A stretch of DNA of 64,000 nt from the NCBI GenBank assembly GCA_009691415.1, contig SICP01000002.1, forward strand, positions 36,547-100,546, written 5' to 3'. The DNA is from Candidatus Margulisiibacteriota bacterium. GTDB taxonomy: Bacteria > Margulisbacteria > Marinamargulisbacteria > SXXA01 > SICP01. Below the pieces are notes generated by a model. It saw only the letters and a program-made list of their open reading frames with translations, made no database searches and was not told the origin of the DNA. Positions within the stretch are counted from its first letter, which is position 1. Each line of letters begins with the position of its first letter. Shown here one piece after another: positions 23,504 through 47,187 of the stretch. The position numbers were made by a program, and so were the translations under genes.

Positions 23504-24133
23504 ATGAGTACAATTAAAACAAACATCCTAATACAAACATCCCTCACAATCCTCAGCATCATTGTATTAGGCTCTAGTTTTAACACTTCATCTGCAGAGA
23601 CGATCGACACAGAGATCGACACAGACAAGAGCTCACTCACCATAGACACACTTCTTCACTTTGGATCTGGCTTCAGCGATACTTTTCAAGCCCCTAGCGG
23701 CAGCAAAGATTCTGTTAACCTCAACAACAAAACCAACTCATTATCCATACTCAGCGCCGGCTTTAAAGTGCTCGCGCAAGAAATGGATCAATACAATCGT
23801 GAGGCAAGCAGTACAGCAACAGGTACTGGCCCAGCAAGAGTAACCAGCCCCCCACTCGTCTACCCCAATCCTTTTCGCCAAAAAAACGGCGCAAAATTAG
23901 GTTACGGGCTAGCTGGAGAGATCAATGAAATTGAAATACAAATCTATGACATGATGGCCAATTTAATCACCAAAAAAACATTCAAAGATCAAGGCGCAAG
24001 ACAAGGTTACAATTTTATCGATATTAATCTCCAAACATTCGATGGCCACTATCTTTCTGCAGGCGTTTATTTCTTACTCATCCTAAACGACGGGAAAGTA
24101 CTAGCTAAAGGAAAGGTTGCGGTGATCCCATGA
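23504..24133 (+). CDS. small secreted protein with a C-terminal FlgD-Ig-like / T9SS-type (Por_Secre_tail-like) beta-sandwich domain
   Basis: Signal peptide MSTIKTNILIQTSLTILSIIVLGSS. C-terminus ...LVYPNPFRQKNG...IEIQIYDMMANLITKKTF...LSAGVYFLLILNDGKVLAKGKVAVIP resembles the YPNP...IxIYD...GVYF...K motif set of TIGR04183 and FlgD_ig domains. Confidence 0.6.
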   Translation: MSTIKTNILIQTSLTILSIIVLGSSFNTSSAETIDTEIDTDKSSLTIDTLLHFGSGFSDTFQAPSGSKDSVNLNNKTNSLSILSAGFKVLAQEMDQYNREASSTATGTGPARVTSPPLVYPNPFRQKNGAKLGYGLAGEINEIEIQIYDMMANLITKKTFKDQGARQGYNFIDINLQTFDGHYLSAGVYFLLILNDGKVLAKGKVAVIP

Positions 24134-25075: not shown

Positions 25076-28000
25076 GTGAAACGCAAATTATTACTCACAC
25101 TTTTAACCTGGCTTATCCTCTTCGCAACAGCTGAATTTGCGCAAGTCACCTTTACATTTAAAGGCAGTTTAATGCGCGCAGACAAAACGTTCATAAATGG
25201 CACCTACAACAACGTAAAAGTAGGCATATATTCTGACGTTGATGAAAGCGTTGCTGACGTTTGGTCAGAAATACAAAATGGAGTGGTCTTTGAGACAGGC
25301 CGTTTCAGCATTCTTGTAGGCAATGTAGACCCAGTTGCGAACCCCCTTAGAATCAGAACGTTCAACATCAACCTCCCCCACTTAGGATTTACAATCAATG
25401 GCAGCGAATTCTTCATCCCTTTTACCTCAACCCCTTATAGTATGCGAACAAAAGTAGCAGAAAAAACAAGCGCCGTTTCAGCACAATACATCGTAGGAAC
25501 ATTCACAAAGCCCGTTGCCATAAAATCTACATTAACCATTACAAGTGGCAATACAACATTACTTAAAACAACCGCCTTAAGCCAAGTAGGAATCGGCAAA
25601 GACAACCCCTTAACAAAAATCGTCAATGGTAAAACTGTCGCAGCAGCACAACTGGACGTCAATGGCCCCGTCAATAGTAGTAGTGGCTTTAAACTAAATG
25701 GCATTGATATCGCAAGAACATTGTCCTGGAAACAGAATGCCCCTATTACTAAAAATATTTATTATGCCAGCGGAAATGTAGGAATCGGACTTCAAAATCC
25801 ACAGTATGCTCTAGATGTGCAAGGAACACTCAATGCAACACAACTACTTCTAAAAGGGAAACGCTTATCTGCCGGACTAGATTGGCAACACGAAGTAAAT
25901 GCCAGTCAAAATTTATACTTCAAAACAGAAGCAGACAATCGCGTGGGTATCGGTAGAGTAGACCCCCAGCAATCGCTTGATGTTAACGGTAGCATAGCAG
26001 TGTCGAGCAACATCACTGATCAAACTACACCACTCCGCGGCATGATCAGAATGTCCCCCACAAGCAATGAAATACAAGGCTTCCGAGACAACCAATGGAT
26101 TCAACTAACAGGATTGAGAGGGCAAGGTCAAAAAAACCAGATCAGTTTTTTCACAAATAAATTTGTACTTTCTGGCTACACACCCTTTTCTTGGAAATCT
26201 CAAACAAACTTACTAGGTATCGGAACCACCTCGCCTCTATCCCAATTGCATTTAGTTAAAACCGAGACCCTCGCCCCATCGCTATACATACAAACAGCAA
26301 CAAACCTCCCTCTATTGGTAGTAACCTCAAATGGAAATATTGGTGTAGGAACTTCTAATCCCAACCAAAAATTAGTTGTAAAAGGAACCCTCAACTCAGA
26401 ACAACTAACAGTAAATGGCCTAGACTTATCATTAGCCGTCTCAAATTCATCTGTATGGATATTGAACAAACAGAGTAGTCTCTTTTACAAATTAGGAAAC
26501 ATAGGAATTGGAAAAATCGACCCGAACAGTCCACTTACTATCGCACAAAGAGTGAATCATCCTGATGAAGACCCAGCCATCACCTTTCGTCAAAACAGTG
26601 GCAACAGCTACACAATGGGCATAAGCAGTAAAAGACCTGATATTTTCCGAGTAGAACGCGGCGACAAATTAAATACCACAACACCCCTATTCGTCATGAA
26701 AAATTACTCTTTTGGCACGGGACTAACTGATCCGTTAGCGCTACTTCACGTTAGCGGCAACGAAGGCGCCGTCTTCAATGGGAAGTTCTTTGGCGTCATA
26801 GACGAAACTTTCCCTGATGTAGACTCAGCAGGAAAACCCATTCTTCCACAAGTAGTACAAGAGGGGGAAGGAACACGTTTTATTTGGCATCCATTACGCG
26901 CTGTTTTGCGAGCGGGTACAGTAACAGGAAATCAATGGAACAATATTAACCTTGGCAAATTCTCCGTAGCATTTGGGTTAAATAATACTGCCAGTGGTAA
27001 TTTCACAACCATCCTAGGCGGAAAAAACAACCTCGCCACGGGTGCGTATTCCACAATATTAGGAGGCGAAAACAACAAAGCTATGGGCGATTTTTCTTTA
27101 GCCAGCGGATACCGAGCAAAAGCACTTCACCATGGATCGTTTGTCTGGGGAGATCGTTCAGGTACAGCATTAAGCACCATCGCACTTAATCAATTTTTAG
27201 TAAAAGTCTCAAATGGTGTAGGAATAGGAACAGCCCTTACCTCAATAGAAGGCAAAAAAAGTACATTAACAATCAAAAAAGTAACCCCCAGTGGTAATAT
27301 TTTTCAAATAGTCGGCAAAAATCTAGCTACTGACATCTTTCAGGTAAGTACTTCTGGCAATGCCATTATAGGATCTAGATCCAGAACAACAGCAGGTTTA
27401 AGCGTCATGGGTAAAACCCAATTTGGAAACAAACAAGTGCCCCCCACGATCAATAGCTTCTTAACCATTTCCAGCGAATCCCCAACCCAAGCCATTTGGA
27501 TTTCAAATAGTAATGAAGATATCAACACCACTCCCAATTTTATTCTTACAAGCTCAGGAAATTTAGGCACCAACATCATTCCTTTGCCAGACGTTATTAC
27601 GAAATTTAAAAATGGAACAGTACAGATAGGAAGAGGCGGCATATTAGGCAATAGTTATGAACTCCCTGATGGAACAAAAATCGGGACAAAGGCTACAGAA
27701 GTCTGGGGCTTAGACGCAGCACCCAATGTCTATTTCACCACTGGAAATGTAGGTATTGGGACAACACGACCTACAAGTCTTCTAACCATTTCAAACGTTG
27801 CCAGCAAACTCTTTCAATCACCCAAAAATCCTGCCATCACATTCTCAAAAAATACAACCCACTACATTTTAGGAATAGAAAATAATGTACCCGATACATT
27901 AAAAATGTTATCTGGTTACGACCTAGCACAACCATCAAAACTTGCGTTTAAATATTCAGAAAATACGCTTGGAAGAATAGGCGTAGGAACAGAAAATCCA

Positions 28001-35449: not shown

Positions 35450-35973
35450 ACGAAAAACATATCCATTCCGAACAAATTTATAAGGGCCGTATTATAAATC
35501 TGAAAAAAAATACGGTACTCCTTACCAATGGAAAAACCGCCACCAGAGAAATTGTTGAGCACGATCCCGCAGTCGTTATCATCGCCTACGATACAAATAA
35601 AACAATTCGGCTAGTCAAACAATACCGCACCCCCGTACAACAAGTTCTACTCGAAGCCCCTGCCGGAATAATTAATAAAGGTGAGCTTCCTCTCAACGCA
35701 GCTAAACGAGAATTACAAGAAGAGACAGGCCTCACCGCAACACAGTGGACCTCCTTAGGCGAAGCCTACCCTGCCCCAGGATTTTGCAATGAATACCTTT
35801 ATTTTTTTCTTGCACAAGACCTTCAGCAAGGGCCACCAAATCCAGATGAAGATGAATTTTTAGAACAGGTAACACTCTCAATGCCAGAATACAAACACCA
35901 CATCCAAACAAAACAAATTATCGATGCCAAAACCATTATGTCTTTTTTTTACATAAAGGAGCACGGATTATGA
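35446..35973 (+). CDS. NUDIX hydrolase (ADP-ribose pyrophosphatase-like)
   Basis: Nudix box GIINKGELPLNAAKRELQEETGL. 175 aa. ATGA overlap with the stop of giant gene 1. Confidence 0.85.
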   Translation: MNEKHIHSEQIYKGRIINLKKNTVLLTNGKTATREIVEHDPAVVIIAYDTNKTIRLVKQYRTPVQQVLLEAPAGIINKGELPLNAAKRELQEETGLTATQWTSLGEAYPAPGFCNEYLYFFLAQDLQQGPPNPDEDEFLEQVTLSMPEYKHHIQTKQIIDAKTIMSFFYIKEHGL

Positions 35974-36839
35974 AAAACCATATGCCCGCATTTTTTCACT
36001 ATCTCTCCTATGAAAAAAGAGTCTCTCCCAACACCATAACTGCATACAAACAAGATCTCACACAGTTTTTTGAACGCCACTCAGAACTCTCAGGAAATAC
36101 CATTTCTCAGTTTATAGCAGACCTAACACAACACGGTTACAAAAATGCATCCATCACACGCAAAACATCTTCTCTTAAAACATTCACAACATTTCTCTAT
36201 CGAGAAAAATATATACCCACCCATCCCATCGCACTTTTAACACGTCCGAAACATGAGAAACGCCTCCCAACAATACTACATTCACACGAAATTAATGCTA
36301 TATTGAATACCTCGTCTGATCATACTAAAACCCCACTGAGAGATACCGCGCTAGTCGAAATACTTTATGGATGCGGACTTAGAATTACAGAATGTCTAAA
36401 TATCAAACTCACCGACATCAACAACGCTCAACAAACCTTACTTGTAACAGGAAAAGGGCAAAAACAACGTCGACTACCTATTGGCACCAAAGCCCATGAA
36501 GCCCTTACAACCTACATCAAAAACGAACGTCCCTTGTTAGAAAAAACCAATCCATCGGACTATCTCTTTATCACGCGCTCCGGAAAAAAATTATCCAGAC
36601 AAAACAGCTTCAACCGCATCAAAGCTCTCGCCAAACAAGCATCTATAACCAAAAAAATGAGTCCTCATACCCTTAGACATACCTACGCCACCCATTTGCT
36701 AGACGGCAACGCAACGCTTCTAGAAGTACAATCTCTCCTCGGACACAGTCACATAACAACAACCCAGCTCTATACAAAAGTTTCTACAAAGCGTCTCAAA
36801 GAAAGCTATTACCAAGCACACCCGAGGGCATTAGCATGA
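35970..36839 (+). CDS. xerD: tyrosine site-specific recombinase XerD/XerC-like
   Basis: 289 aa. N-terminal SAM-like core-binding domain (LSYEKRVSPNTITAYKQDL). Catalytic residues sit in GLRITE (R), HTLRHTYAT (H-x-x-R) and LGHSHITTTQLYTKV (H, Y). ATGA overlaps at both ends. Confidence 0.9.
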   Translation: MKNHMPAFFHYLSYEKRVSPNTITAYKQDLTQFFERHSELSGNTISQFIADLTQHGYKNASITRKTSSLKTFTTFLYREKYIPTHPIALLTRPKHEKRLPTILHSHEINAILNTSSDHTKTPLRDTALVEILYGCGLRITECLNIKLTDINNAQQTLLVTGKGQKQRRLPIGTKAHEALTTYIKNERPLLEKTNPSDYLFITRSGKKLSRQNSFNRIKALAKQASITKKMSPHTLRHTYATHLLDGNATLLEVQSLLGHSHITTTQLYTKVSTKRLKESYYQAHPRALA

Positions 36840-37429
36840 TTATAGCCATCAGCATTCTCTCGCTTCTCATAGCCGTTATCTTCCATGAAGTAGCCCATGG
36901 TTATGTAGCCTATCGATTTGGAGATCCCACAGCCAAACTTCAAGGACGAATTAGCCTCAACCCACTTGTTCACATTGACTGGTTAGGCTCTATTATCTTG
37001 CCAGGCATCCTTATCCTTTCGGGAGCTCCATTTCTAATAGGATGGGCAAAACCGGTACCCATCAACCCCAATTATTTTCAAAATCCTCTCCGGGACATGA
37101 TGTGGGTAGCCATCGCAGGGCCACTAACAAATATCACGATAGCCCTCTTTGCCAGCACAGTTTTAAAATTCCATCTCAACAGTGTTCTCGACTATTTTTT
37201 AGTCGTTTCAATTAGTATTAATATCGTACTTGCACTCTTCAATCTTTTCCCCATCCCACCGCTTGATGGATCTCGGATACTCATGTACATAGCCCCAAAA
37301 TCCATCCAACACTTTTTAACATCCATAGAGCCTTACGGGTTTGTTATTCTATTTTTCTTAGTCTATCTCAACGTTTTTCAGAAGATCTTGCCGTTTCTAA
37401 TCCACCCCATATTGGAGGCACTATTATGA
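36836..37429 (+). CDS. site-2 protease family (M50B) integral membrane zinc metalloprotease, 197 aa
   Basis: HEVAHGYVAYRFGD (HExxH) in TM1, LNPLVHIDWLGS, and the ...FNLFPIPPLDGSRIL motif typical of M50B proteases. ATGA overlap with the start of giant gene 2. Confidence 0.8.
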   Translation: MIIAISILSLLIAVIFHEVAHGYVAYRFGDPTAKLQGRISLNPLVHIDWLGSIILPGILILSGAPFLIGWAKPVPINPNYFQNPLRDMMWVAIAGPLTNITIALFASTVLKFHLNSVLDYFLVVSISINIVLALFNLFPIPPLDGSRILMYIAPKSIQHFLTSIEPYGFVILFFLVYLNVFQKILPFLIHPILEALL

Positions 37430-40400
37430 AATGCAAGTTTTTCCAGAAAAGACTCGATATGAAAAATAAGAAAATCAAAAAAAATAAGGGTATAATTGTG
37501 AAAACACTCATGAAAACAAAAACGTTAATCACCCAAGCCCACCTATGGATAGCTATCCTCTTCCTAACTTTGCTTACATCTGTGAGCTTTGCGACTACCC
37601 CAATGGTCTTAACATTTCAGGCTACCCTAGCCAGACAACAAGGAGGACTTATTCAAGGAAGAAACAAAGTAACGATTGGAATATATCCGGGAAATTCAAT
37701 TGAACCCACCTGGATTGAGCCTCACAATAACGTACTCTTTATCAACGGTAGTTGCAGTATCATTCTGGGAAATATACAACCGCTTACCCCAGACCATCTC
37801 AATGTTCCAAATCCTCGCTTCGGACTAAAAGTGGGTAACACTTCACAAATTGCCTATTTTCCTGTTCCATCAACCCCGTATTCCATACAATCTAAACTAG
37901 CTGACAGTGCACTCTCCGTTTCAGCCAACAATATTTCAGGAACCTTCACAAATCCAGTTAGGATTAACGCAAACCTAACTGTAGGCGACACAACCCTATA
38001 TGCCAATCCAACCACAGGAAAAGTAGGTATCGGGACTACCGCCCCCACTTACAAACTGGATGTTGCAGGAATCATTAATGCAACCGGATTTAAAATTAAC
38101 GGCATCGACTTAGAATCTTCATTATCTTGGCAAAAAAAAGCCAATAACGCTCTATACTACACACAAGGAAACGTCGGAATAGCAACACAAAATCCAAAAA
38201 CACGTCTAGAAGTCGCTGGGACCATCAATGCACAAGAAATACGAATCAAAGGCGTTGAACTCTCAATCCTACTTGCCACTCAACTTGCCTGGCGTGAAGG
38301 TGCTAGACCTAAAGACATCTATTTTAATGACGGTACTCAAGAAGGCAATGTAGGAATTGGCACATCGATACCACGATCAAAACTAGATGTTGCTGGAGCT
38401 ATTCGCGTAGGAGAAGCCCAAAGTAACACACTGGGAAGCATTCAATATAAAAACAATGATTTCCAAGGATTTACAAAAACAGGATGGACTTCTTTTGCCT
38501 CTCTATCCGGTATCGGCGCAGCTAATCAAATTCCTTTCTGGACAAATTCCACAGAACTTTCCGGAAGCACTAATTTAGTCTGGGATCGCACACGAAATAG
38601 ATTAGGCATTGGAACAAATAACCCTACAGCACAACTCAGCATGACTGCCATTGACGCCAATCGTGCACTTGTACGCATCGACAATTCATTAGGGAAAACA
38701 CTATTTTATGTAGGCAGTCAAAATGTTGGGATTGGAACATCAACCCCAAATAGCAAACTAACCGTAAAAGGAGTCGTTGATGCGGAAGCCTATCTCGTCA
38801 AAGGGGTTCCTATCGCACAAGCCCTGTCTTCAAACTCATTTTGGGTTTTCCAAAACGATGGACGTATTTACTATGATAAAGGCAACGTGGGAATTGGCAC
38901 AATAAATCCTAAAAATCTTTTAGAACTAGCCGCAGCCCCATCACGAGACCCCATCATTACATTTGATATTGCAAGCAACCCCGCTTTCAGTTTAGGTATA
39001 TCAGCATCAAATCCAAATGCCTTCATATTAGGAAAAGGAGGGGATCTCAAAAACCCAATTTTTGTTTTTAATGGCAATAAAATTGGCGTAGGTCTCACCT
39101 CACCGAGCGCCAATTTACATGTGAGTGGAAACAGCGGCGTTCTTTTCACAGGAACACTAAATAATGGAACTCCCCTTGGCTTAAAAGGTGAAGGCACACG
39201 ACTCGTTTGGCACCCAGGAAAAGCCGCATTTAGAGCAGGTTATGTTAATAGAAAACAATGGGATGAAGAAAATATTGGTCTGTATTCTGTAGCAATGGGA
39301 TATAATCCCTCAGCCAATGGACTTGCATCGGTAGCAGCGGGTGGTTACGAAAGTGATGCAGGCGGAAATTATGCAGTGGTTGCCGGTGGATTCAAAAATA
39401 AGGCAAAAGGTATCCATAGTTTCGCTGCAGGGCACCAAGCATTAGCTCTCCATGCCGGATCATTCGTATGGAGTGATTATTCTCCAACTGCATCAGAAAC
39501 AAGCTTTAAATCAGTAATGTCCAACCAATTTGTTATACGTGCTACAAATGGTGTCGGTATTGGAACAAACCTAACAGCAGGAAATGGGCTCACTGTTGCA
39601 TCAGATTTTAATGACACTTATATCGTAAATGCACTAAAACCAGATGGAACAAGCGCCATGATCATCAACGTATCAGGCAATGTTGGATTGGGAACAACCG
39701 ATCCAGGAATCGCTAAACTTGCTGTCATGAACGGAAAAGTTGGGATAGGAACAACCACACCGATCGCGCAATTAACTCTATCGGGAAGTACACCTGACGG
39801 ATTCCAATTTGTCGCTTATAAAAAAACAGGAGTACCCGCATTCTTTATAAAAAACGACGGCAGAATCGGAATCGGAAAACCTCTAAACTATGTATTCGCT
39901 GATGACATCTATTTGGCTATTTCAGGCGCTATTGTAGGCAATGCCTTTGCCATACAAAATCCAAATGGAAGTCAGACACAGTTAGAAAGTAATCCAGGAT
40001 CACCTTGGGCCATCCCTTCTGAAAATCTTAACAGCACTTTCTTCAATAAAGGCTTTGTAGGAATAGGAACAAAAGCACCTGCAAGTCTTCTGGAATTGTC
40101 CAACGCCGCCTCATCAACTCGAAATCCAGTCATTACATTCGACACAGATGGCGTCAAAAGATTTAGTTTAGGTACAACTGCAAATGTATTTACTATTCAA
40201 AAAGGTGGCACTATCAATAGTAAAAACCCACTTTTCGCACTCACAGATAATGGTAACGGGGGTGGTGGCGTTGGCATTGGCATTGGTTACAAAACCCCCA
40301 GCGCCTCTCTACATGTCAGTGGCAATTCTATGTTTACCAGTAAAGTCGTCATTGCCACAACCAATACCACGCAGATCTATGACTTAACTGTAGAGGGAGC

Positions 40401-43400
40401 AATAAATGTCAAAACACTATTTATAAACGGAGATCAATTTATCCCTCAACCTAACCCATGGAAAACAAATGAACTAGACATCTACTACCCAAGCGGAAAC
40501 GTGGGAATCGGAACAAGAACCCCTAGTGCAAAACTTGAAGTTATTGGAACTGTTTCTGCCAATCAGATCATACAACGTGATGCATTCATACTAAACGGAA
40601 ACCTCACGACAAACAAATTGAGACTCAAAGATACCAGCGCCAATGTAACCCAGTACGGAGAACTTGCAGTCACAAACGAAGAACTGATTTACATAGATCC
40701 CGCTAGAAACCTCAAAGTTATTTCATCTCCATTAAGACGAAATTCTAATGCAGCTTTTGACGGAAAACTTGCGTATTGGATCGACAACTCTACTGTCGGC
40801 GTAAGCAATATTTTATGGAAACATGCAACTAACGAATTAGTCCTATCAGGCAATTTGGTTGTGAATGCCTCTTCACAAGAAACAGATGGATTCACAGCGC
40901 TCTCTCATGTGTCAATGGGACTTCCAAATGCTCTCGAAATCACAAGCACTATCAATCATGGAGGTGATTTAAGAACAGTAAGAAGCTACACAGGACAAAA
41001 CATCCTCGTAAACGTACAGAAAAACTGGGGAAATATTAACTCCGCTGTTTCGGTAAAAGGTCTAGACATTATCATGCAACAAACTGCTAACAATCTCTTT
41101 TTAAACAAAGCCAAAGCCATAGGCCTCAACGTCGATATGTCTAGAGTAAATGTTGATGTAATAGGAGGCGGAAAAAAAGCAGCTGCCATCTTTACAGGAG
41201 GCTTTGTAGGTATTGGCACAACAAATCCTAAAACAGCACTCGAAGTAGTAGGAACTGTTTCCGCAAATTATTTTAACCTAACCGGCGGATTAACTGTTCC
41301 AGAACTCTTTGTTAATACAGATGCACTTGTTGCATACAAAGATGTATCCACACAAACTCCTCGCGTAGGTATAGGCACAACAAGTCCTAGAACAGAATTA
41401 GATATTATTGGAACGGTATCTGCAAATGTATTTAATGTCGCAAATACATTTACAGTAGCAACACTCAATGTAAATAAAGGCGCTTTATTCGTAAATAGTG
41501 CTGGAAATATTGGAATTGGTACCACACAACCCAATGGGCAAATTGAATTAAAGAAAATACTCAGCACCACCCCTAGCTCACCTTTCTTTGCAGAAAAGAT
41601 TGGCGTCACAATAGATGGTGCAGGAAAAGATCAAACCTTTGCCTTCAATAAAAATTTAAGCGGTTTAGACATTACCTTAGACTCAGAAACAGGAAGCCAA
41701 ATTGGAAACGGTAAAATCGCAACAGGTGTAAGTGTCAATTTAACAAATCTAGAACTTGATCCAGCAAGCACCGCTGTAGGACTTAATGTGAATGTAACAG
41801 GCACAACAGGCAAAAGATTTGCCGCCATTTTTACAGGGGGCCGTGTAGGTATAGGCGTCACACAACCCTTAGCAGAACTACACGTAAGTGGCAGTATCAA
41901 AGCAGACAATCTAGTACTTGAAGGTACTTTAGAAGCAAATATAGCCACATTTAACAGACTCACAATCAATCAAACCGGTCTATTTAACAATTCTGTAACT
42001 ATTAATACACTTACTGTACTTGGAAAGCTAAGCGCAAATTCACTTGTACTCAGCACCCCCTTAATAGCCGGACAAGGAACCTTTTCAACCCTTAATGCAC
42101 AAGTCGCATCCTTCAATAAAGTCACGCTAAATACACTCACCGTAAACAGTATAAATGGCAGCGCTACAACAGCCACACTTAATACACTCACCGTTACAGG
42201 AAAAACACGTGCGCAATCCGTCATAATCACCAAGAGCCTAACCCTCACAAATGCAACGATGAACATCAATAACAATACACTCGTGGTCACGACTAGTAAA
42301 AATGTAGGTATCGGTACAAGAACCCCCCTTACCATCCTACATGTCGAAAATGCCAATGCAAACGTATTTTCAGCTGAAAATAACAATACATGGAATACAA
42401 TACGCATTCAAAACAACAACAATGCCGCAAATTCCGCAGCATCTATTTTATTGGTTCCTGATGAGAGACACCCCTCATTCAGCATTGGCTCAGGCATCTC
42501 CGCAGTCAGAAGTAATAGCAGCATAAATTCTGGGTCAGACCTAGTATTTGTCACCGATAGAAATAGCAGTGCTCCAGTAGAGGGAATGCGCATTACAGAA
42601 GCAGGAAATATTGGTATTGGCACATCAACACCCAAAGCCCAACTCGATGTACAAGGAACAGCTTGGTTCAATAGCACTGTAACCATAAATGGCACATTAG
42701 GTGTAGGAACACTCAATAGCACAAACAATTTAACGATTAATACACCCAGGGGGAAAAGTATCTTTCAAAATACCGTTTCTGCCAATGCCAGCATACAAAT
42801 ACAAAACGGTTTATTTTTCAAAGGAACCACACCACCTACAACACAAGCAGGTTATGGAGCTCTCTATATGCTTAGTACAGACAAAAATCTATACTACCAA
42901 AGTCCAGCAGGAACCAGCATTAACCTAACCGCCGCCTATACAGGTAGAAATGGTATTATTCCATTCTTTAACGCCAAAAACAGCCTCGATGATACAGCGC
43001 CCCTTTACTGGAACAACACCAGCAAAACACTCACCGTAGGAACCGGCAATATCGTGAGCAATGTCAAAATTGTCAGTGTGATTGATAACAGTACCAATCC
43101 AACAGAATTTGCAGGACAAAATATATCGCTTGAATTCGGAAACCGTACAACAGCCAGCACCACTGTATTTTCAGGATTAAATATACAGCTTAAAGGCCAA
43201 ACCCCTAACGATCCCTTTACATTCGGACGCTTAGCTCAAAACGAAGTTGCAATAGGATTAAATGTAGATGTCAGTAACCTAGCTGCACGTCGAACCAATT
43301 CTCTAGGAAACAATCTCACAGGATTTAAGTACGCCGCAATATTTACTGGTGGCAGTGTCGGCATCGGCAATAAAACGCCCATTGCATCACTACATATCAC

Positions 43401-46400
43401 TACAGATGTAACAGGAAATCCAAGTCTAATTGTAGATAGCAAAAGTTCTTCAGGAACCCTCATACAAAATGCACTCGTTGTCTCCAGTAACAGTTTTGTA
43501 GGTATAGGAACGGCCGCACCATTAGCAAGACTTCATGTCGTTGGCTCTGACAGCAGCACAAACAATGCCGCCTTAAGAATTGTAGATACTGGAGGCAGCA
43601 CGCTACTAATCGTTAAAAATAACGGTAACGTAGGTATCGGCAAATCCAACCCACAATCCAAACTAGATATCAACGGAACATTAACCGCGACAACCGGTAG
43701 TTTTGATGGTGTGACCGCAACAACATTAAATGTTGGCAATGGAAATCTTTTTGTGAATGCCAGCGGCAATGTAGGTATCGGTACCATAACCCCCACTGGA
43801 AATATTAACTTTTTCAAGAGAATTACTTCATCCAATATCCCTGTTGGAAGCTTCACTTCACAAAAAATGGACCTCATCATATCTGGAGGAACCGTCAATA
43901 ATTTATTTAGCCTTAATAAAGACATTACAGGTATTAATCTATCCCTAAGCTCCGAAGCCAATAACGTCCTTGCTGCCAGTAAAACAGCAACAGGAATTAA
44001 AATTGATATGAGTCCATTAAAAACGGAAACAAACACAACCGTAACCGGGTTAGATATTGATGTAACAGGTACAACGGGCACTCGATATGCCGCGCTCTTC
44101 CAAGGAGGTAATGTAGGAATTGGGCTGACACAACCCACCACCGCACTACACGTCTCTGGAAATATCAAAACAACCTCTTTAATCAGTGATGGAAGTATCA
44201 ACGTCGGGACTGTCACAGCCAATAGCTTACACATAGCAGGAGACGCTAGGTTTACAGGCAGTGTAACCATTAACACATTAGAAGCAACCACCGTGTCTGC
44301 AAACAATTTAACACTCACAGGAACACTCACATTAGAAAAAGCAAATCTTAGTATACTCACTGGCACAACAGCCAAATTCACCCAACTAGGAATCGGAGTC
44401 TCTCCTAATAACGCCTTAGACGTCAGTGGAAACTTAACAGTGGCCAAAGGAAGAATCGGTATCGGAATCACTGCTCCAACAGCCCTGCTCCATCTCTCAT
44501 CCCTCAACCAAAACGCTCTGGTGATTGATGTCAAAAACAGCACAACAACGACACGAAATGTACTCTTGGTAAATAGTATAGGATACGTCGGCATCAGCAC
44601 TGCCAACCCAAGTGCCAAACTCAGCATCGTGGCAGACAATAGCAGCGCCACCAACTATGCCTTAAAAATTAACAACCTCACTAAAAATATTTTAACGTTA
44701 CAAAATGATGGCAACATGGGCGTTGGAACCGCCAATCCACAAGCGATTCTCCACACCGTTGGCACAGCCAGCACGGCTCCACTACGAATTGACACCAATA
44801 CGATCTCCTTTGCATTGGTTGCAAGCCAAAACGGTAGAATTGGTGTAGGCACAGCCAATCCACAAGCATTACTACATATCGTCAACAGTAATATCTCTCC
44901 ATTCAAAGTAGGCACTGCTACACAACCCAACGCACTATTGGTTGATAACAATGGACGTGTAGGAATTGGTAGTAGTAGTTTAACCTTCCCATTAAATGTG
45001 AGTGGAAACATGTTATTAGGATCAGACCCTTCCGGCAGCAGCATAGCCTCTTGGATTAGCAGCTCAAAAACAGCAGGGGTACTCGCAAGTAGAGGAACTA
45101 AATATGCATTCTTCGGAGCGAAAGAAAAAACATCTGGATCCAATAATTACAATGCAGTAGTCAGCTGGAAAACCGGCGACACACTTACATTTGAAAATAG
45201 CACCAACCCATTATTATACATTCAAGGAAATGGACAAGTTGGAATAGGGTCTACCTCAAATGCACAATTAAACGTGAGTGGAAACAGTACTACGCCACTC
45301 CTTCAAATCGGTACGGCAAGCTCACCTTTTGCACTGATCGTTTCAGGAAATGGCCGCGTAGGAATTGCGACTTCCAACCCCTCCGCAGAACTAGCCATCA
45401 ACGGAACTTTAATGGCCAAAAAACTAACCATCTTAAGTGATACAGTCAGTGTATCTACCCTCAACGTCACAAAGCAATTAACAATATTTCGCACGATTAC
45501 AAATGTAACTAAGCCAGCAACAGCGCAAAGTATTACACTCAATTTAGGAGCAGACGTTGCCAACAACATCGTTGGATTAGACATCAATCTCAAATCATCC
45601 TTACACAGCTCTTTAAGTAGAAACAATGCCCTATACAACGCAAATGCCTATGGATTAAAAGTAGATATGACCAATCTTGAAATCACAGATCCCACTCTTG
45701 GAAATTCCTCTAATGGCAATAAATACGCAGCAACATTTACAGGAGGTGCAGTCGGTATCGGAACATCCAAACCATCCGTATTATTCCAAGTCATCGGTGC
45801 TGCGGGTGGAGACATTGCTCAATTTGGCACACTCGAAAATGCAGCCCTCACAATCCAAGATGTGGATACAGGGTTAATGCGAATAAATTTAGTAGATCAA
45901 ACAGATACGTTAAGCAAACACGAAACCCTCGTCTTTTATAAAGACATCGTTGGTATCGGCACAAATACAGACACCATCAAAGCAGAAGATTCTAATACTA
46001 AATTACTTGTAAATGGTGATGTGAGAGTCGGTGTATTAAGAACCACAGGCCAACTTAACATGGCAGGAGTCACAGACCCACTAAATGAACCCAGAGCCTA
46101 TGGAGCAAAACTTTATTTCTCAGGAGCGGCAGACGTATCAACCCAATATGATAACGACAACAATAGTCCTTTATGGATGGCCCGATATAATAGAGGCAAC
46201 GAAATTTCTGAATTACGCGTCAACGTCGGGAATGGAGACGGTGATAAATTTGTTGTAGGTACCGGAATAGGCGGCAGCACCTTCAAACCTATTCTAATTG
46301 CTATTCCAAAAAGTACTTCAGGTGCAAATAGAGTTGGCATCACAGATGGAACCGTCAATAACTTTACCCCCACCGCACCATTACACGTCATCGGTAGTAC

Positions 46401-47187
46401 ATCAGGATCTTCAGGATCCGCATCAAGCCATCTTGTAGTGATAGAAAATACAGGGGGTGCAAGTTCAGACAGTCTTGTTATCTGGCATAATGGCTACCTC
46501 GGATCACCAGGCAATACAAAAGTACCAACCACGTCCAACTTCATTACATTCATGGACAAAACAAATATACTGGGTGAAATCGAAGGGAGTGACGGGAACG
46601 GTGTACGGTTTAAAACAGCCGGAGCAGATTATGCAGAATATCTTCCTAAAATAGACCCTGCCGAAAAAATTAATAAAGGGGATATCGTCGGGGTCTTTAA
46701 CGGCAAGATCAGCAAAAATACAGACGGTGCAACACAAATCATGGTCCACAGTACAGCCGCAGGTGTTGCAGGAAACTGGCCTGGCAAGAAAAATATCGGA
46801 AATTATGAACTCATCGCATTTTTTGGGCAAGTCAAAGTCAACGTTACAGGTCCTGCACATAAAGGTGATTTCATTCTACCGTCCAATAAAAATGACGGGA
46901 CTGGCATAGCCGTACCAGAACAAAATATTCACTCCGAACAAATCTCACAAATTCTAGGACGCGTATGGGAAGATAAGCCTGGAAATGAAACCGCAACCGT
47001 TCTAACGGCAGTTGGATTCAATTTTAGTATCCCATCACTCAGAAGTGAGAGTGCCGCCATTTCAACACTTAAAACTGAACTAGAAAATCTCCAAAATCAA
47101 CAGCAAGAATTAAGTAATCAATTCGAACAAAAACTAGAAGCACAAAATAAAGAAATTGACGCATTGCTACTAAAGCTGAAAAAATAA
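37426..47187 (+). CDS. giant secreted fibre-like repeat protein, 3253 aa (paralogue of 25076..35449)
   Basis: Uninterrupted 9.8-kb ORF. The hydrophobic signal-like segment LWIAILFLTLLTSVSFA follows a Lys-rich 45-aa leader; an alternative start MKTKTL lies at about 37510. It has the same architecture as giant 1. The conserved N-terminal domain (FPVPSTPYSIQSKLAD is equivalent to FTSTPYSMRTKVAE) is present. The SxAxG block is at 39185..39480. The GxVGIGT signature is very frequent. The conserved C-terminal module begins at about 46538, with GADYAEY and a terminal coiled coil. Confidence 0.85.
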   Translation: MKCKFFQKRLDMKNKKIKKNKGIIVKTLMKTKTLITQAHLWIAILFLTLLTSVSFATTPMVLTFQATLARQQGGLIQGRNKVTIGIYPGNSIEPTWIEPHNNVLFINGSCSIILGNIQPLTPDHLNVPNPRFGLKVGNTSQIAYFPVPSTPYSIQSKLADSALSVSANNISGTFTNPVRINANLTVGDTTLYANPTTGKVGIGTTAPTYKLDVAGIINATGFKINGIDLESSLSWQKKANNALYYTQGNVGIATQNPKTRLEVAGTINAQEIRIKGVELSILLATQLAWREGARPKDIYFNDGTQEGNVGIGTSIPRSKLDVAGAIRVGEAQSNTLGSIQYKNNDFQGFTKTGWTSFASLSGIGAANQIPFWTNSTELSGSTNLVWDRTRNRLGIGTNNPTAQLSMTAIDANRALVRIDNSLGKTLFYVGSQNVGIGTSTPNSKLTVKGVVDAEAYLVKGVPIAQALSSNSFWVFQNDGRIYYDKGNVGIGTINPKNLLELAAAPSRDPIITFDIASNPAFSLGISASNPNAFILGKGGDLKNPIFVFNGNKIGVGLTSPSANLHVSGNSGVLFTGTLNNGTPLGLKGEGTRLVWHPGKAAFRAGYVNRKQWDEENIGLYSVAMGYNPSANGLASVAAGGYESDAGGNYAVVAGGFKNKAKGIHSFAAGHQALALHAGSFVWSDYSPTASETSFKSVMSNQFVIRATNGVGIGTNLTAGNGLTVASDFNDTYIVNALKPDGTSAMIINVSGNVGLGTTDPGIAKLAVMNGKVGIGTTTPIAQLTLSGSTPDGFQFVAYKKTGVPAFFIKNDGRIGIGKPLNYVFADDIYLAISGAIVGNAFAIQNPNGSQTQLESNPGSPWAIPSENLNSTFFNKGFVGIGTKAPASLLELSNAASSTRNPVITFDTDGVKRFSLGTTANVFTIQKGGTINSKNPLFALTDNGNGGGGVGIGIGYKTPSASLHVSGNSMFTSKVVIATTNTTQIYDLTVEGAINVKTLFINGDQFIPQPNPWKTNELDIYYPSGNVGIGTRTPSAKLEVIGTVSANQIIQRDAFILNGNLTTNKLRLKDTSANVTQYGELAVTNEELIYIDPARNLKVISSPLRRNSNAAFDGKLAYWIDNSTVGVSNILWKHATNELVLSGNLVVNASSQETDGFTALSHVSMGLPNALEITSTINHGGDLRTVRSYTGQNILVNVQKNWGNINSAVSVKGLDIIMQQTANNLFLNKAKAIGLNVDMSRVNVDVIGGGKKAAAIFTGGFVGIGTTNPKTALEVVGTVSANYFNLTGGLTVPELFVNTDALVAYKDVSTQTPRVGIGTTSPRTELDIIGTVSANVFNVANTFTVATLNVNKGALFVNSAGNIGIGTTQPNGQIELKKILSTTPSSPFFAEKIGVTIDGAGKDQTFAFNKNLSGLDITLDSETGSQIGNGKIATGVSVNLTNLELDPASTAVGLNVNVTGTTGKRFAAIFTGGRVGIGVTQPLAELHVSGSIKADNLVLEGTLEANIATFNRLTINQTGLFNNSVTINTLTVLGKLSANSLVLSTPLIAGQGTFSTLNAQVASFNKVTLNTLTVNSINGSATTATLNTLTVTGKTRAQSVIITKSLTLTNATMNINNNTLVVTTSKNVGIGTRTPLTILHVENANANVFSAENNNTWNTIRIQNNNNAANSAASILLVPDERHPSFSIGSGISAVRSNSSINSGSDLVFVTDRNSSAPVEGMRITEAGNIGIGTSTPKAQLDVQGTAWFNSTVTINGTLGVGTLNSTNNLTINTPRGKSIFQNTVSANASIQIQNGLFFKGTTPPTTQAGYGALYMLSTDKNLYYQSPAGTSINLTAAYTGRNGIIPFFNAKNSLDDTAPLYWNNTSKTLTVGTGNIVSNVKIVSVIDNSTNPTEFAGQNISLEFGNRTTASTTVFSGLNIQLKGQTPNDPFTFGRLAQNEVAIGLNVDVSNLAARRTNSLGNNLTGFKYAAIFTGGSVGIGNKTPIASLHITTDVTGNPSLIVDSKSSSGTLIQNALVVSSNSFVGIGTAAPLARLHVVGSDSSTNNAALRIVDTGGSTLLIVKNNGNVGIGKSNPQSKLDINGTLTATTGSFDGVTATTLNVGNGNLFVNASGNVGIGTITPTGNINFFKRITSSNIPVGSFTSQKMDLIISGGTVNNLFSLNKDITGINLSLSSEANNVLAASKTATGIKIDMSPLKTETNTTVTGLDIDVTGTTGTRYAALFQGGNVGIGLTQPTTALHVSGNIKTTSLISDGSINVGTVTANSLHIAGDARFTGSVTINTLEATTVSANNLTLTGTLTLEKANLSILTGTTAKFTQLGIGVSPNNALDVSGNLTVAKGRIGIGITAPTALLHLSSLNQNALVIDVKNSTTTTRNVLLVNSIGYVGISTANPSAKLSIVADNSSATNYALKINNLTKNILTLQNDGNMGVGTANPQAILHTVGTASTAPLRIDTNTISFALVASQNGRIGVGTANPQALLHIVNSNISPFKVGTATQPNALLVDNNGRVGIGSSSLTFPLNVSGNMLLGSDPSGSSIASWISSSKTAGVLASRGTKYAFFGAKEKTSGSNNYNAVVSWKTGDTLTFENSTNPLLYIQGNGQVGIGSTSNAQLNVSGNSTTPLLQIGTASSPFALIVSGNGRVGIATSNPSAELAINGTLMAKKLTILSDTVSVSTLNVTKQLTIFRTITNVTKPATAQSITLNLGADVANNIVGLDINLKSSLHSSLSRNNALYNANAYGLKVDMTNLEITDPTLGNSSNGNKYAATFTGGAVGIGTSKPSVLFQVIGAAGGDIAQFGTLENAALTIQDVDTGLMRINLVDQTDTLSKHETLVFYKDIVGIGTNTDTIKAEDSNTKLLVNGDVRVGVLRTTGQLNMAGVTDPLNEPRAYGAKLYFSGAADVSTQYDNDNNSPLWMARYNRGNEISELRVNVGNGDGDKFVVGTGIGGSTFKPILIAIPKSTSGANRVGITDGTVNNFTPTAPLHVIGSTSGSSGSASSHLVVIENTGGASSDSLVIWHNGYLGSPGNTKVPTTSNFITFMDKTNILGEIEGSDGNGVRFKTAGADYAEYLPKIDPAEKINKGDIVGVFNGKISKNTDGATQIMVHSTAAGVAGNWPGKKNIGNYELIAFFGQVKVNVTGPAHKGDFILPSNKNDGTGIAVPEQNIHSEQISQILGRVWEDKPGNETATVLTAVGFNFSIPSLRSESAAISTLKTELENLQNQQQELSNQFEQKLEAQNKEIDALLLKLKK
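38166..45400 (+). repeat. array of degenerate protein-level repeats in giant gene 2 marked by the G-N-V-G-I-G-T-x-x-P signature
   Basis: Examples at 38166, 38350, 38722, 38884, 40498, 42298, 42607, 43636, 43765 and 44110. A near-tandem subarray lies at 44700..45000 (VGTANPQAILH / VGTANPQALLH). Confidence 0.7.

What the first reader, a model, noticed from the sequence alone, without database searches (positions are those of the whole stretch)
25076..47187. Two giant paralogous fibre-like secreted proteins (3457 and 3253 aa) take up about one third of the window
Two intact ORFs of 10.4 kb and 9.8 kb lie on the same strand. Both have signal peptides, a conserved roughly 100-aa N-terminal domain with an STPYS motif, dozens of degenerate units each carrying G-N-V-G-I-G-T-x-x-P-x-x-x-L-x-V, a shared SxAxG-rich block, and a shared C-terminal module ending in a coiled coil. 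The composition is T/N/S/G-rich with very few charged stretches. This suggests a long beta-solenoid or triple-beta-helix surface fibre, that is an adhesin, S-layer-like or contact-dependent appendage. The nucleotide sequences of the two copies are well diverged (for example the GDYAEYIL versus GADYAEYLP regions differ at most wobble positions). They are therefore old paralogues, not an assembly duplication. I cannot assign them to a named family from sequence alone. The G-N-V-G-I-G-T signature is also seen in so-called tail-fibre-domain proteins of several phyla, which would make this a largely uncharacterised class of giant surface protein.
Basis: partly seen in the sequence, partly recalled or inferred. 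Interest (0 to 1): 0.85.

Follow-up and report, generated by a model that had tools for sequence, protein, structure and literature searches.

The report
Giant tail-fibre-like surface fibres, Margulisbacteria
Two intact 10-kb genes of an uncultured Margulisbacteria genome encode old paralogous secreted proteins built from the same parts as phage tail fibres and Bdellovibrio surface fibres, about three times longer, and they probably form cell-surface filaments roughly 0.1 µm long.

Summary
ORF A (25076-35449, 3457 aa) and ORF B (37426-47187, 3253 aa) are intact, collinear paralogues (32% aa identity) with almost no DNA similarity. A is under purifying selection (dN/dS 0.12 against an orthologue); B was not tested.

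They can be placed. The GNVGIGTxxPxxxL unit is the 'capping loop' of trimeric beta-helical fibres, solved in the Bdellovibrio MAT fibres. It occurs about 19-30 times in A, 30-39 times in B, and never in shuffles. The last ~185 aa are a phi29-gp12 / Peptidase_G2-type intramolecular chaperone. Its invariant DYAE motif aligns with the first residues of the released phi29 fragment, so the coiled-coil end is probably cut off after trimer folding. A roughly 95-aa beta-sandwich follows the signal peptide.

The organism is Candidatus Margulisbacteria. About 70 relatives of 2,900-5,650 aa carry the same ends.

A-type giants are always preceded by a small protein with a T9SS-type C-terminal domain and a PorV/PorQ-like outer-membrane barrel. 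This pair is a candidate anchor.

Verdict: a real, new variant of a known kind. Trimerisation, cleavage, surface location and function are inferred, not shown.

The parts
23504..24133 (+). 209-aa small protein: N-terminal signal/anchor segment, low-complexity middle, C-terminal T9SS type-A sorting domain (aa 119-206, YPNPF...IYD...GVYF signature)
   Evidence: It scores 28.3 bits on TIGR04183 Por_Secre_tail (cut-off 23), and all 3 orthologues tested also hit this model. Orthologues are 37-41% identical and sit in the same position upstream of A-type giants.
24130..25059 (+). 309-aa PorV/PorQ-like outer-membrane beta-barrel protein with a signal peptide; its start overlaps the stop of the previous gene
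   Evidence: It scores E 7.9e-13 (48.7 bits) on NF033709 PorV_fam, aligned end to end (30-308 against profile positions 10-325 of 326) but below the curated cut-off of 90. All 3 orthologues tested hit this model, best 5.4e-17, and also hit PorQ. The search found 52 relatives, and every one that a source assigns to a phylum is Margulisbacteria except one MAG labelled 'Thermoproteota archaeon' (probably mislabelled), while the other named rows say only 'bacterium' or 'hypothetical protein'. In 6 of 6 genome loci with enough DNA a giant ORF starts 4-18 nt downstream.
25076..35449 (+). Giant A, 3457 aa (GTG start, GAGGA 8 nt upstream)
   Evidence: Intact ORF. dN/dS is 0.12 against the L006 orthologue. 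Orthologues are P0045, P0048 and P0069.
25076..25141 (+). A: Sec-type signal peptide (aa 1-22)
   Evidence: Read from the sequence: n-region KRK, hydrophobic core, AEFA|Q.
25142..25450 (+). A: N-terminal beta-sandwich domain plus the STPYS linker (aa 23-125)
   Evidence: It aligns with the B domain and with all relatives.
26921..27286 (+).
   Evidence: phmmer against PDB UspA1 3pr7 gives E 3.7e-4. Pfam LbR_Ice_bind gives 18.5 bits, below its cut-off.
34883..35446 (+). A: C-terminal G2-type intramolecular chaperone (aa 3270-3457); predicted self-cleavage G3269|D3270; ends in a coiled coil
   Evidence: Pfam Peptidase_G2 gives 21.7 bits (cut-off 25). DYAE is invariant in the family. The family profile hits phi29 gp12 3gqh.
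36836..37429 (+). 197-aa M50-type membrane metalloprotease-like protein (HEVAH, LDG motifs); overlaps the start of B by 4 nt. Conserved neighbour of B-type giants; its link to the fibre is unproven
   Evidence: Pfam Peptidase_M50 gives 5e-16. Motifs were read. Synteny is shown.
37426..47187 (+). Giant B, 3253 aa (ATG start, GGAGG 9 nt upstream)
   Evidence: Intact ORF. The identical product occurs in an independent assembly. About 50 B-type orthologues at 33-88% identity were found.
37426..37593 (+). B: extended signal peptide (aa 1-56; 28-aa lysine-rich extension, then a hydrophobic core and SFA|TT)
   Evidence: Read from the sequence. In one search the alignment with A starts at M29.
37594..37884 (+). 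B: N-terminal beta-sandwich domain plus STPYS (aa 57-153)
39295..39525 (+). B: YadA/UspA1-head-like beta-roll repeats (aa 624-700)
   Evidence: Weak match to PDB UspA1 3ntn, E 0.23. It aligns with the A block. PF05658 YadA_head is precomputed in several relatives.
41881..42030 (+). B: bactofilin-like beta-helix stretch (aa 1486-1535)
   Evidence: Pfam Bactofilin gives 35.2 bits (cut-off 27.9) in 2 stretches. I read this as beta-helix mimicry inside a secreted protein.
46627..47184 (+). B: C-terminal G2-type intramolecular chaperone (aa 3068-3253); predicted self-cleavage A3067|D3068
   Evidence: AF2 gives pLDDT 86-96 from the DYAE motif onwards. The top Foldseek PDB hits are 3suc and 3gqh_A, both phi29 gp12, prob 1.00. 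The profile alignment puts DYAEY on residues 1-5 of the released phi29 fragment.
47041..47181 (+). B: terminal 47-residue helix (aa 3206-3252), the 'coiled coil'
   Evidence: The AF2 model has a helix at 378-424 of the segment that starts at aa 2829.

Best explanation
Proposed mechanism.
1. A and B are exported by Sec through an N-terminal signal peptide.
2. Each assembles into a homotrimeric, largely beta-helical fibre of the phage tail-fibre / Bdellovibrio MAT type.
3. Folding starts at the C-terminus. The last ~185 residues form a phi29-gp12 / Peptidase_G2-type intramolecular chaperone that registers the three chains through a beta domain and a coiled coil.
4. The chaperone then cuts itself off just before the invariant Asp of DYAEY (A: G3269|D3270; B: A3067|D3068).
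5. The mature fibres would be about 3,250 aa (A) and 3,010 aa (B) per chain.
6. They would be punctuated by about 20-35 'capping loops' (GNVGIGTxxPxxxL), a YadA-head-like beta-roll, and beta-sandwich inserts.
7. Scaled from the solved Bdellovibrio tip, they would be on the order of 0.12 µm long.
8. The N-terminal beta-sandwich holds the fibre at the cell. The new C-terminal tip points outwards and binds a target, such as another cell or a surface.
9. For the A-type fibre, the co-transcribed pair just upstream is the best candidate for the outer-membrane docking site. The pair is a small protein with a T9SS-type CTD and a PorV/PorQ-like barrel, and would work by analogy with PorQ:PorZ.

Shown here: sequence and fold homology of the parts, conservation, synteny, and selection on A.

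Inferred: trimer state, cleavage, surface location, adhesion, and anchoring.
For: C-terminal chaperone.
- DYAE lies about 185 aa from the end in A, B and about 70 relatives. D, Y, A and E are invariant in 29 of 29 aligned sequences.
- The family profile hits the phi29 gp12 C-terminal fragment 3gqh (E 5.5e-5). Family DYAEY aligns with DFAEY at residues 1-5 of that released chain.
- The same profile hits the 'chaperon domain D4' of tailspike Dpo31 (E 6e-5).
- 27 of 29 members hit Pfam Peptidase_G2, best 1.2e-8.
- In the AF2 model this region has pLDDT 86-96. Its best PDB fold matches are 3suc and 3gqh_A, prob 1.00, TM 0.56 on the target.
- Mature phi29 gp12* ends at residue 691 (PMC6542822).

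Fibre body.
- The motif HMM finds 19-30 copies in A, 30-39 in B, and 0 in shuffles.
- The motif is identical in form to the Bdellovibrio MAT and MyRF capping loops (NVGIGATAPTAKLE and others).
- phmmer gives a weak hit to the Bd2133 structure 8ond.
- PHROG tail-fibre families match at 1.6e-39 and 3.3e-35.
- BFVD fold hits are to tail-fibre, S74 and endosialidase proteins.
- There is a UspA1-head-like block.

Export and envelope.
- Signal peptides are present.
- The window encodes diderm envelope genes: AcrB, a TolC-like protein and a SurA-like protein.

Real genes.
- dN/dS of A is 0.12.
- The identical B product occurs in an independent assembly.

Candidate anchor.
- The triad CTD protein, PorV-like barrel, giant is found in L004, L005 and the P0051 contig.
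- It is also found in 6 of 6 informative genome loci.
- PorV_fam and Por_Secre_tail hits are seen in all orthologues tested.
- In Porphyromonas, PorZ and PorU are held on the surface by PorQ and PorV, and PorU keeps an uncleaved CTD (PMC5562754).
Against: - The Peptidase_G2 scores of A and B themselves (21.7 and 22 bits) are below Pfam's cut-off of 25. The assignment rests on the family profile and on fold.
- tblastn of the B chaperone domain finds nothing in 50,697 phage records, so the relationship is remote.
- Only monomers could be modelled. Outside the two terminal domains the models are of low to middle confidence.
- Trimerisation and cleavage are untested.
- No route across the outer membrane is identified. 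The giants carry no T9SS CTD, no autotransporter barrel and no T1SS signal.
- The PorV-like protein scores below the NCBIfam cut-off and has no sequence match in the PDB.
- B-type giants have no such partner pair.
- Homology of the N-terminal sandwich to the Bdellovibrio MAT N-domain could not be tested.
Confidence: 0.7

Rival explanations
1. The proteins form a continuous surface coat (an S-layer-like or sheath-like lattice) rather than discrete adhesive fibres. The giants would pack side by side to cover the cell.
For: - Two conserved housekeeping-like paralogues occur per genome, in fixed chromosomal positions next to ychF and xer.
- Purifying selection is strong and uniform along the whole length of A, with no hypervariable tip.
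- The collinearity of A and B suggests a structural rather than a diversifying role.
Against: - All recognisable modules (capping loops, G2 chaperone, YadA-like head) come from elongated trimeric fibres and spikes, not from lattice-forming S-layer proteins.
- No SLH or other S-layer anchoring domain was found.
Confidence: 0.12
2. The giants are exported by, or piggy-back on, a type IX-like secretion pathway. The small CTD protein would act as an adaptor and the PorV-like barrel as a shuttle, rather than as a static anchor.
For: - A Por_Secre_tail domain scores above its cut-off in the 209-aa protein.
- PorV/PorQ/PorP-family similarity is seen in the 309-aa protein and its orthologues.
- Both genes are tightly linked to A-type giants.
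Against: - The giants themselves have no CTD. Their C-terminus is the G2 chaperone.
- No other T9SS gene lies in the 64-kb window.
- No paper in the library links Margulisbacteria with T9SS.
- B-type giants lack the pair.
- Whole-genome presence of SprA and PorKLMN was not tested.
Confidence: 0.1
3. They are tail fibres of a prophage, tailocin or other phage-derived particle that happens to lie in this window.
For: - PHROG tail-fibre hits.
- A phage-type chaperone.
- A tyrosine recombinase gene lies between the two giants.
Against: - There are no capsid, portal, terminase, sheath, tube or baseplate genes. The neighbours are AcrB, transketolase, RseP, YchF and similar.
- The recombinase is a 289-aa Xer-type protein. 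Its position, together with NUDIX and M50, is conserved next to B-type giants in distantly related Margulisbacteria at 45% identity.
- Both giants have Sec signal peptides, which virion proteins lack.
- Composition is uniform across the window.
Confidence: 0.03
4. They are intracellular cytoskeletal polymers (bactofilin-like), as one JGI annotation of a relative suggests.
For: - A Pfam Bactofilin hit above its cut-off in B (35.2 bits).
- JGI's name for P0023.
Against: - The hit covers about 50 of 3,253 residues.
- The proteins have signal peptides, extracellular-type modules and a tailspike chaperone.
- The bactofilin fold is a beta-helix, so the hit is expected mimicry.
Confidence: 0.02

Closest known systems
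Bdellovibrio bacteriovorus MAT ('mosaic adhesive trimer') fibres, e.g. Bd2133, Bd1334, Bd3182 (Caulton et al. 2024, PMC10769870; PDB 8ond, 8oml)
   Same: - A signal peptide is followed at once by a conserved beta-rich N-terminal domain.
- A long fibre body carries the same capping-loop motif (V-G-G/N-pi-x-x-P-x-x-x-L; NVGIGATAPTAKLE and others).
- It is a cellular, non-phage protein of a diderm bacterium, present as paralogues.
- Some MATs end in an autoproteolytic chaperone.
- There is weak direct sequence similarity to 8ond.
   Different: - MATs are about 1,000 aa; these are 3,250-3,460 aa, and relatives reach 5,650 aa.
- The MAT chaperone, when present, is S74 (SDxxxK). Here it is G2 (DYAE), and no SDxxxK lies near the end.
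- MAT tips are highly variable ('tip swapping'). Here the region before the cut site is conserved and collinear.
- The phylum differs: Margulisbacteria rather than Bdellovibrionota.
- A-type giants have a conserved PorV-like/CTD gene pair, which is not reported for MATs.
- Homology of the N-terminal domains was not tested.
Bacillus phage phi29 gp12 pre-neck appendage (tailspike) and MEROPS/Pfam Peptidase_G2 (PF11962); PDB 3gq7, 3gqh, 3suc; also the Klebsiella phage depolymerase Dpo31 chaperone domain D4 (28nb)
   Same: - The C-terminal ~160-190 aa autochaperone matches by profile (E 5.5e-5 and 6e-5) and by fold (prob 1.00).
- The D-[YF]-A-E-Y motif sits exactly at the start of the released fragment.
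- A beta domain is followed by a helical end.
- The chaperone sits behind a trimeric beta-helical body.
   Different: - gp12 is an 854-aa virion protein without a signal peptide. It has a right-handed single-chain beta-helix enzyme body.
- Here the body is about 3,000 aa of capping-loop fibre in a cellular secreted protein.
- Identity is about 15-18%.
- tblastn against phage genomes finds nothing.
S74-type tail fibres and spikes with an intramolecular chaperone (K1F endosialidase, T5 pb1, eukaryotic MyRF); NCBI 'tail fiber domain-containing protein'
   Same: - The same capping-loop stalk units.
- More distant hits of B (P0078, P0079, P0085, P0086, P0091-P0093 and others) end in PF13884 with SDxxxK. 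Several of them (P0079, P0085, P0096) share the N-terminal sandwich.
   Different: The catalytic chaperone family differs: Ser-Lys S74 there, G2 here.
PorQ:PorZ and PorV:PorU attachment sub-complexes of the Porphyromonas type IX secretion system (PMC5562754)
   Same: An outer-membrane barrel of the PorV/PorQ family is encoded together with a protein carrying a type-A CTD. In Porphyromonas such pairs hold the CTD protein on the cell surface.
   Different: - The scores are below the family cut-off.
- The CTD protein is only 209 aa, with no PorZ or PorU body.
- No other T9SS genes were seen.
- The phylum lies outside Bacteroidota.
- The link to the fibre rests on gene order only.
Trimeric autotransporter adhesins (YadA, UspA1)
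   Same: A short block of head-type beta-roll repeats, and a long trimeric adhesive fibre concept.
   Different: There is no C-terminal membrane-anchor barrel, and the orientation is the reverse: N-terminus proximal and C-terminus distal.

Membership tests
MAT fibre family (Bdellovibrio; PMC10769870) | Sec signal peptide | tested here: met
   Read from the sequence. No signal-peptide predictor was available.
MAT fibre family (Bdellovibrio; PMC10769870) | Conserved beta-rich domain of about 130 aa immediately after the signal peptide, homologous among MATs | tested here: inconclusive
   A beta-sandwich of about 95-120 aa lies in exactly that position (pLDDT 86-98) and is very widespread. Like the MAT N-domain, it has no specific PDB homologue. 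No Bdellovibrio N-domain sequence or AFDB library was available, so homology was not compared.
MAT fibre family (Bdellovibrio; PMC10769870) | Fibre body with capping-loop motif V-G-G/N-pi-x-x-P-x-x-x-L | tested here: met
   19-30 copies in A, 30-39 in B and 0 in shuffles. The form is the same as in Supplementary Fig. 18 of the paper.
MAT fibre family (Bdellovibrio; PMC10769870) | Homotrimeric meandering fibre displayed on the cell surface | not testable with these tools
   Only monomer AF2 was offered, and there are no experimental data.
MAT fibre family (Bdellovibrio; PMC10769870) | C-terminus is either an S74 chaperone (SDxxxK) or a variable adhesive tip domain | tested here: not met
   No SDxxxK lies near the end. 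The terminus is a G2-type chaperone, and the preceding region is conserved.
Peptidase_G2 / phi29 gp12-type intramolecular chaperone (PF11962) | Sequence match to the family model above its threshold | tested here: inconclusive
   A scores 21.7 bits and B 22 bits against a cut-off of 25. 27 of 29 relatives match at E<=0.1, best 1.2e-8. The family profile against PDB gp12 gives E 5.5e-5.
Peptidase_G2 / phi29 gp12-type intramolecular chaperone (PF11962) | Same fold as the gp12 C-terminal fragment | tested here: met
   The top Foldseek hits are 3suc (E 5.8e-4) and 3gqh_A (E 1.3e-3, TM 0.56 on the target), both prob 1.00.
Peptidase_G2 / phi29 gp12-type intramolecular chaperone (PF11962) | Conserved Asp and Glu (D-x-x-E) at the cleavage site, at the first residues of the released fragment | tested here: met
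   DYAE is invariant and aligns with DFAE at residues 1-4 of chain 3gqh_A. That these two residues are catalytic is from my own recollection of Xiang et al. 2009, which I did not re-read here.
Peptidase_G2 / phi29 gp12-type intramolecular chaperone (PF11962) | Autoproteolytic release after trimer assembly | not testable with these tools
   Needs expression and mutagenesis.
Type IX secretion cargo | C-terminal sorting domain (CTD, type A or B) on the cargo itself | tested here: not met
   Neither giant has a Por_Secre_tail or type-B CTD hit. Only the neighbouring 209-aa protein has one.
PorV/PorQ family (NF033709) for the 309-aa neighbour | Full-length match above the curated cut-off | tested here: not met
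   48.7 bits against a cut-off of 90, although E is 7.9e-13 and coverage is end to end. Orthologues reach 5.4e-17. It is best called PorV/PorQ-like.
Trimeric autotransporter adhesin | C-terminal 12-stranded membrane-anchor barrel (YadA_anchor) | tested here: not met
   No such hit was found. Only a short head-like repeat block is present.
Prophage or tailocin tail fibre | Embedded among phage structural and assembly genes | tested here: not met
   The neighbours are chromosomal housekeeping genes, and the synteny is conserved across the phylum.

The most novel reading that the evidence does not exclude
The conserved operon 'small CTD protein, PorV/PorQ-like barrel, A-type giant' would be a self-contained outer-membrane docking system that works without a type IX secretion system.

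In this reading the barrel grips the uncleaved CTD of the small protein, as PorQ grips PorZ. The exposed part of the small protein, or the barrel itself, holds the trimeric N-terminal sandwich of a fibre about 0.12 µm long.

This would be the first identified cell-surface anchor for MAT-type or tail-fibre-type bacterial fibres. The Bdellovibrio study explicitly left that question open.

It would also show that T9SS attachment parts have been re-used outside Bacteroidota, in a sister lineage of Cyanobacteria. There the two ancient fibre paralogues would mediate cell-cell attachment (epibiosis, symbiosis or predation).
Probability: 0.2. Interest if true: 0.8.

Novelty: new variant of a known kind. 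Interest (0 to 1): 0.55.

Why it matters
- Margulisbacteria are uncultured relatives of Cyanobacteria. They have been flagged as unusually rich in huge proteins that carry no functional assignment (PMC11573180; bioRxiv 10.1101/2023.11.21.568195).
- This finding gives two such proteins per genome a concrete architecture and a testable assembly mechanism. They take up about a third of this window.
- It extends the recently defined bacterial 'phage-fibre-like adhesin' class in three ways: to a new phylum, to three- to five-fold greater length, and to a second chaperone type (G2 instead of S74).
- It offers a candidate answer to an open question, namely what holds such fibres on the outer membrane.
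- If the fibres mediate attachment, they bear on how these bacteria live, whether free, epibiotic or symbiotic.

Tried and rejected
- The AFDB fold library was not available, so the N-domain could not be compared with Bdellovibrio models.
- The search for homologous proteins with the N-domain alignment returned one hit. Full HMMER over the representatives then found 15,750. I treat the first result as a word-index failure.
- Names for ten mid-length N-domain proteins were uninformative.
- PDB profile searches with the PorV-like and CTD-protein alignments found nothing.
- tblastn of the chaperone domain against phage genomes found nothing.
- P0032 could not be located by exact look-up.
- NCBIfam gave no hit for either giant.
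- No tRNA was found that would hint at an integration site.
- Prophage tail fibre, bactofilin cytoskeleton, autotransporter adhesin, T9SS cargo and contact-dependent toxin were all considered and rejected. The reasons are given under the rivals and in the membership table. For the toxin reading, there is no toxin or Rhs domain, and the C-terminus is the chaperone.


Full report
**Observation**

ORF A is 25076-35449 (3457 aa, GTG start) and ORF B is 37426-47187 (3253 aa). BLASTP aligns them collinearly over 2,990 columns at 32% identity.

At the DNA level megablast finds nothing. Sensitive blastn finds only six patches of 25-101 nt. The two are therefore old paralogues, not a duplicated assembly.

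Both start with Sec-type signal peptides. B has an extra 28-residue lysine-rich extension, and a GGAGG 9 nt upstream of its first ATG supports that start. STPYS lies at aa 118 in A and aa 149 in B.

An HMM built from the strict GNVGIGTxxPxxxL instances finds 19-30 copies in A and 30-39 in B. It finds none in 40 shuffled controls. Composition is as described.

**Are the genes real?**

- The identical 3253-aa product is called on an independently assembled contig.
- Copies of about 88% identity and the same length occur in two more assemblies.
- About 70 relatives keep both the N- and C-terminal domains.
- Gene A compared with its orthologue in another MAG (L006) gives dN 0.11, dS 0.98 and dN/dS 0.12 over 3,325 codons. 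The ratio is even in all four quarters.

**Organism and context**

The best hit to B is a 100%-identical 'hypothetical protein EXS67_00915 [Candidatus Margulisbacteria bacterium]'. The close relatives that a source assigns to a phylum are Margulisbacteria or Marinamargulisbacteria, with two exceptions: one MAG is labelled 'Thermoproteota archaeon', probably wrongly, and several rows say only 'bacterium'.

The surroundings are ordinary chromosome: AcrB, a TolC-like protein, IlvD, a SurA-like protein, FtsEX, transketolase, RseP, MazG and YchF. These genes also indicate a diderm envelope. There are no phage structural genes and no tRNA.

**C-terminal module**

A DYAE motif lies about 185 residues from the end in A, B and some 70 relatives. 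D, Y, A and E are invariant in a 29-sequence alignment.

The evidence that this module is a G2-type chaperone is as follows.

- A profile of the alignment hits the released C-terminal fragment of the phage phi29 pre-neck appendage gp12 (3gqh, E 5.5e-5). The family's DYAEY aligns with DFAEY at residues 1-5 of that chain.
- The same profile hits the 'chaperon domain D4' of tailspike Dpo31 (E 6e-5).
- 27 of 29 members hit Pfam Peptidase_G2, best 1.2e-8. A and B themselves score 21.7 and 22 bits, just under the cut-off of 25.
- An AF2 model of B aa 2829-3253 is confident (pLDDT 86-96) exactly from the DYAE motif onwards, and ends in a 47-residue helix.
- The best PDB fold matches of that model are 3suc and 3gqh_A, both phi29 gp12, at probability 1.00.
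- Mature gp12* ends at residue 691 (PMC6542822), which is directly before the fragment that starts with D.

I conclude that the shared 'C-terminal module ending in a coiled coil' is a G2-type intramolecular chaperone. It most probably cuts itself off at G3269|D3270 in A and at A3067|D3068 in B. That Asp and Glu are the catalytic residues is from my memory of Xiang et al. 2009, which I did not re-read here.

**Fibre body**

The repeated unit is the 'capping loop' that Caulton et al. solved in the trimeric beta-helices of the Bdellovibrio MAT fibres. They also found it in phage S74 fibres and in MyRF. Their consensus is V-G-G/N-pi-x-x-P-x-x-x-L, and instances such as NVGIGATAPTAKLE are the same in form as those here (PMC10769870).

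Further links to known fibres:

- B has a weak direct match to the Bd2133 structure 8ond.
- B has strong matches to two PHROG tail-fibre families (1.6e-39 and 3.3e-35).
- The modelled repeat region finds tail-fibre, S74 and endosialidase proteins in the viral structure library.

More distant hits of B end in S74 chaperones instead, and several of them share the N-terminal domain. This Margulisbacteria family is therefore a G2-capped branch of a much larger tail-fibre-like superfamily.

**N-terminal domain**

This matches the position and description of the MAT N-terminal domain. I could not test homology, because no Bdellovibrio N-terminal sequence or AFDB library was available.

**Synteny**

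Two conserved neighbourhoods exist.

- B-type giants follow NUDIX, a Xer-type recombinase and a ~200-aa M50-like protease. They precede a 154-aa protein and ychF. This holds in genomes where the giant is only 45% identical.
- A-type giants are preceded by two small genes. This holds in L004, L005 and the contig of P0051, where A- and B-type genes are not adjacent. It also holds in 6 of 6 genome loci with enough sequence, where a giant ORF starts 4-18 nt after the second gene.

The first small gene encodes a ~200-aa protein. Its C-terminus is a T9SS type-A sorting domain (28.3 bits, cut-off 23), and all orthologues tested hit the same model.

The second encodes a ~310-aa protein that aligns end to end with the PorV/PorQ family. 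It scores E 7.9e-13, and orthologues reach 5.4e-17, but all are below the curated cut-off. Its 52 detectable relatives that carry a phylum name are Margulisbacteria, again apart from the 'Thermoproteota' MAG, and many share contigs with giants.

In Porphyromonas, PorQ and PorV hold the CTD-bearing PorZ and PorU on the cell surface (PMC5562754). By analogy, this pair is the best candidate for the outer-membrane docking site of the A-type fibre. The argument rests on gene order and remote homology only.

**Mechanism proposed**

1. The protein is exported by Sec.
2. Three chains are brought into register by the C-terminal chaperone.
3. A long fibre zips up. It has capping loops, a YadA-like roll and beta-sandwich inserts.
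4. The chaperone removes itself by autoproteolysis.
5. The fibre is held at the N-terminal sandwich.
6. The new C-terminal tip is displayed about 0.12 µm away.

The length is scaled from the 370-aa, 150-Å Bd2133 tip to 3,010-3,250 residues. It is an inference.

What is shown is homology of the parts, conservation, synteny, and selection on A. What is inferred is the trimer state, cleavage, location and adhesive function. How the fibre crosses the outer membrane is unknown. The giants have no CTD, no autotransporter barrel and no T1SS signal.

**Rivals**

- An S-layer-like coat is not excluded. It fits the fixed gene positions, the even selection along A and the collinearity of A and B.
- A T9SS-like export route is possible, but nothing beyond the two neighbouring genes supports it.
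- A prophage origin is contradicted by the context, the phylum-wide synteny and the signal peptides.
- A bactofilin cytoskeleton is contradicted by the signal peptides and by the tiny extent of the hit.

**Novelty**

The kind is known since 2024: bacterial surface fibres made of phage tail-fibre modules with a self-cleaving chaperone. The following are new here.

- The size, about 3,300 aa, with relatives up to 5,650 aa.
- The G2 rather than S74 chaperone on a capping-loop fibre.
- The phylum.
- The two ancient, collinear paralogues per genome.
- The conserved PorV-like/CTD partner pair.

I found no paper describing any of this. Two surveys only note that Margulisbacteria are rich in huge, unassigned proteins. 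I rate it a new variant of a known kind, of moderate interest. The anchor hypothesis is the part that could matter most.

Noticed in passing
window 37426-37593: B carries a 28-aa lysine-rich extension ahead of the hydrophobic core of its signal peptide (MKCKFFQKRLDMKNKKIKKNKGIIVKTL...). A GGAGG 9 nt upstream supports the first ATG, while NCBI's copy starts at M12. Several relatives also have long N-terminal extensions. This recalls the extended signal peptides of very large type V secreted proteins.
   Followed up: partly
window 35446-37429: The NUDIX hydrolase, Xer-type tyrosine recombinase and 197-aa M50-like metalloprotease (HEVAH and LDG motifs intact) form a trio. Across distant Margulisbacteria (L003, L005, the contig of P0024) the recombinase and the protease stay immediately upstream of B-type giants, but NUDIX is absent in L005. 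The M50 gene overlaps the start of B by 4 nt. Whether the protease acts on the fibre or its signal peptide is unknown.
   Followed up: partly
window 47217-47681: A 154-aa protein with a strongly acidic tail has no family hit. It is conserved between the B-type giant and ychF in other Margulisbacteria.
   Followed up: no
window 1-64000: GC skew of the + strand is negative in every 2-kb bin, whatever the orientation of the genes, and AT skew is positive throughout. This suggests one replichore, with the two giant genes on the strand opposite to most upstream genes. The skew is weakest inside the giants.
   Followed up: no
P0030 / P0263 (NCBI ACFL96_00555 and ACFL96_00585, same 107-kb contig): A MAG labelled 'Thermoproteota archaeon' carries a B-type giant and the PorV-like gene of this bacterial locus. 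The bin is probably mislabelled or contaminated.
   Followed up: no
P0133 (6287 aa): The N-terminal sandwich domain normally occurs as a single copy right after the signal peptide. In one 6,287-aa protein it occurs in 12 stretches, so it can also act as a repeat module.
   Followed up: no
L009 8597-9169 (Marinamargulisbacteria SAG AG-343-D04): A 191-aa ORF containing DYAE, which is the chaperone end of another giant, lies directly upstream of the CTD-protein / PorV-like pair. In that genome, giants flank the pair on both sides.
   Followed up: no
window 41881-42030 and relative P0023: A ~50-aa stretch of B passes Pfam's Bactofilin threshold, and JGI names a relative 'cytoskeletal protein CcmA (bactofilin family)'. 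This looks like an annotation trap caused by beta-helix mimicry.
   Followed up: yes
alignment A6: The word-indexed protein search returned a single hit for the N-domain alignment. Exhaustive HMMER over the representatives found 15,750. This is a tool limitation to keep in mind, not biology.
   Followed up: yes
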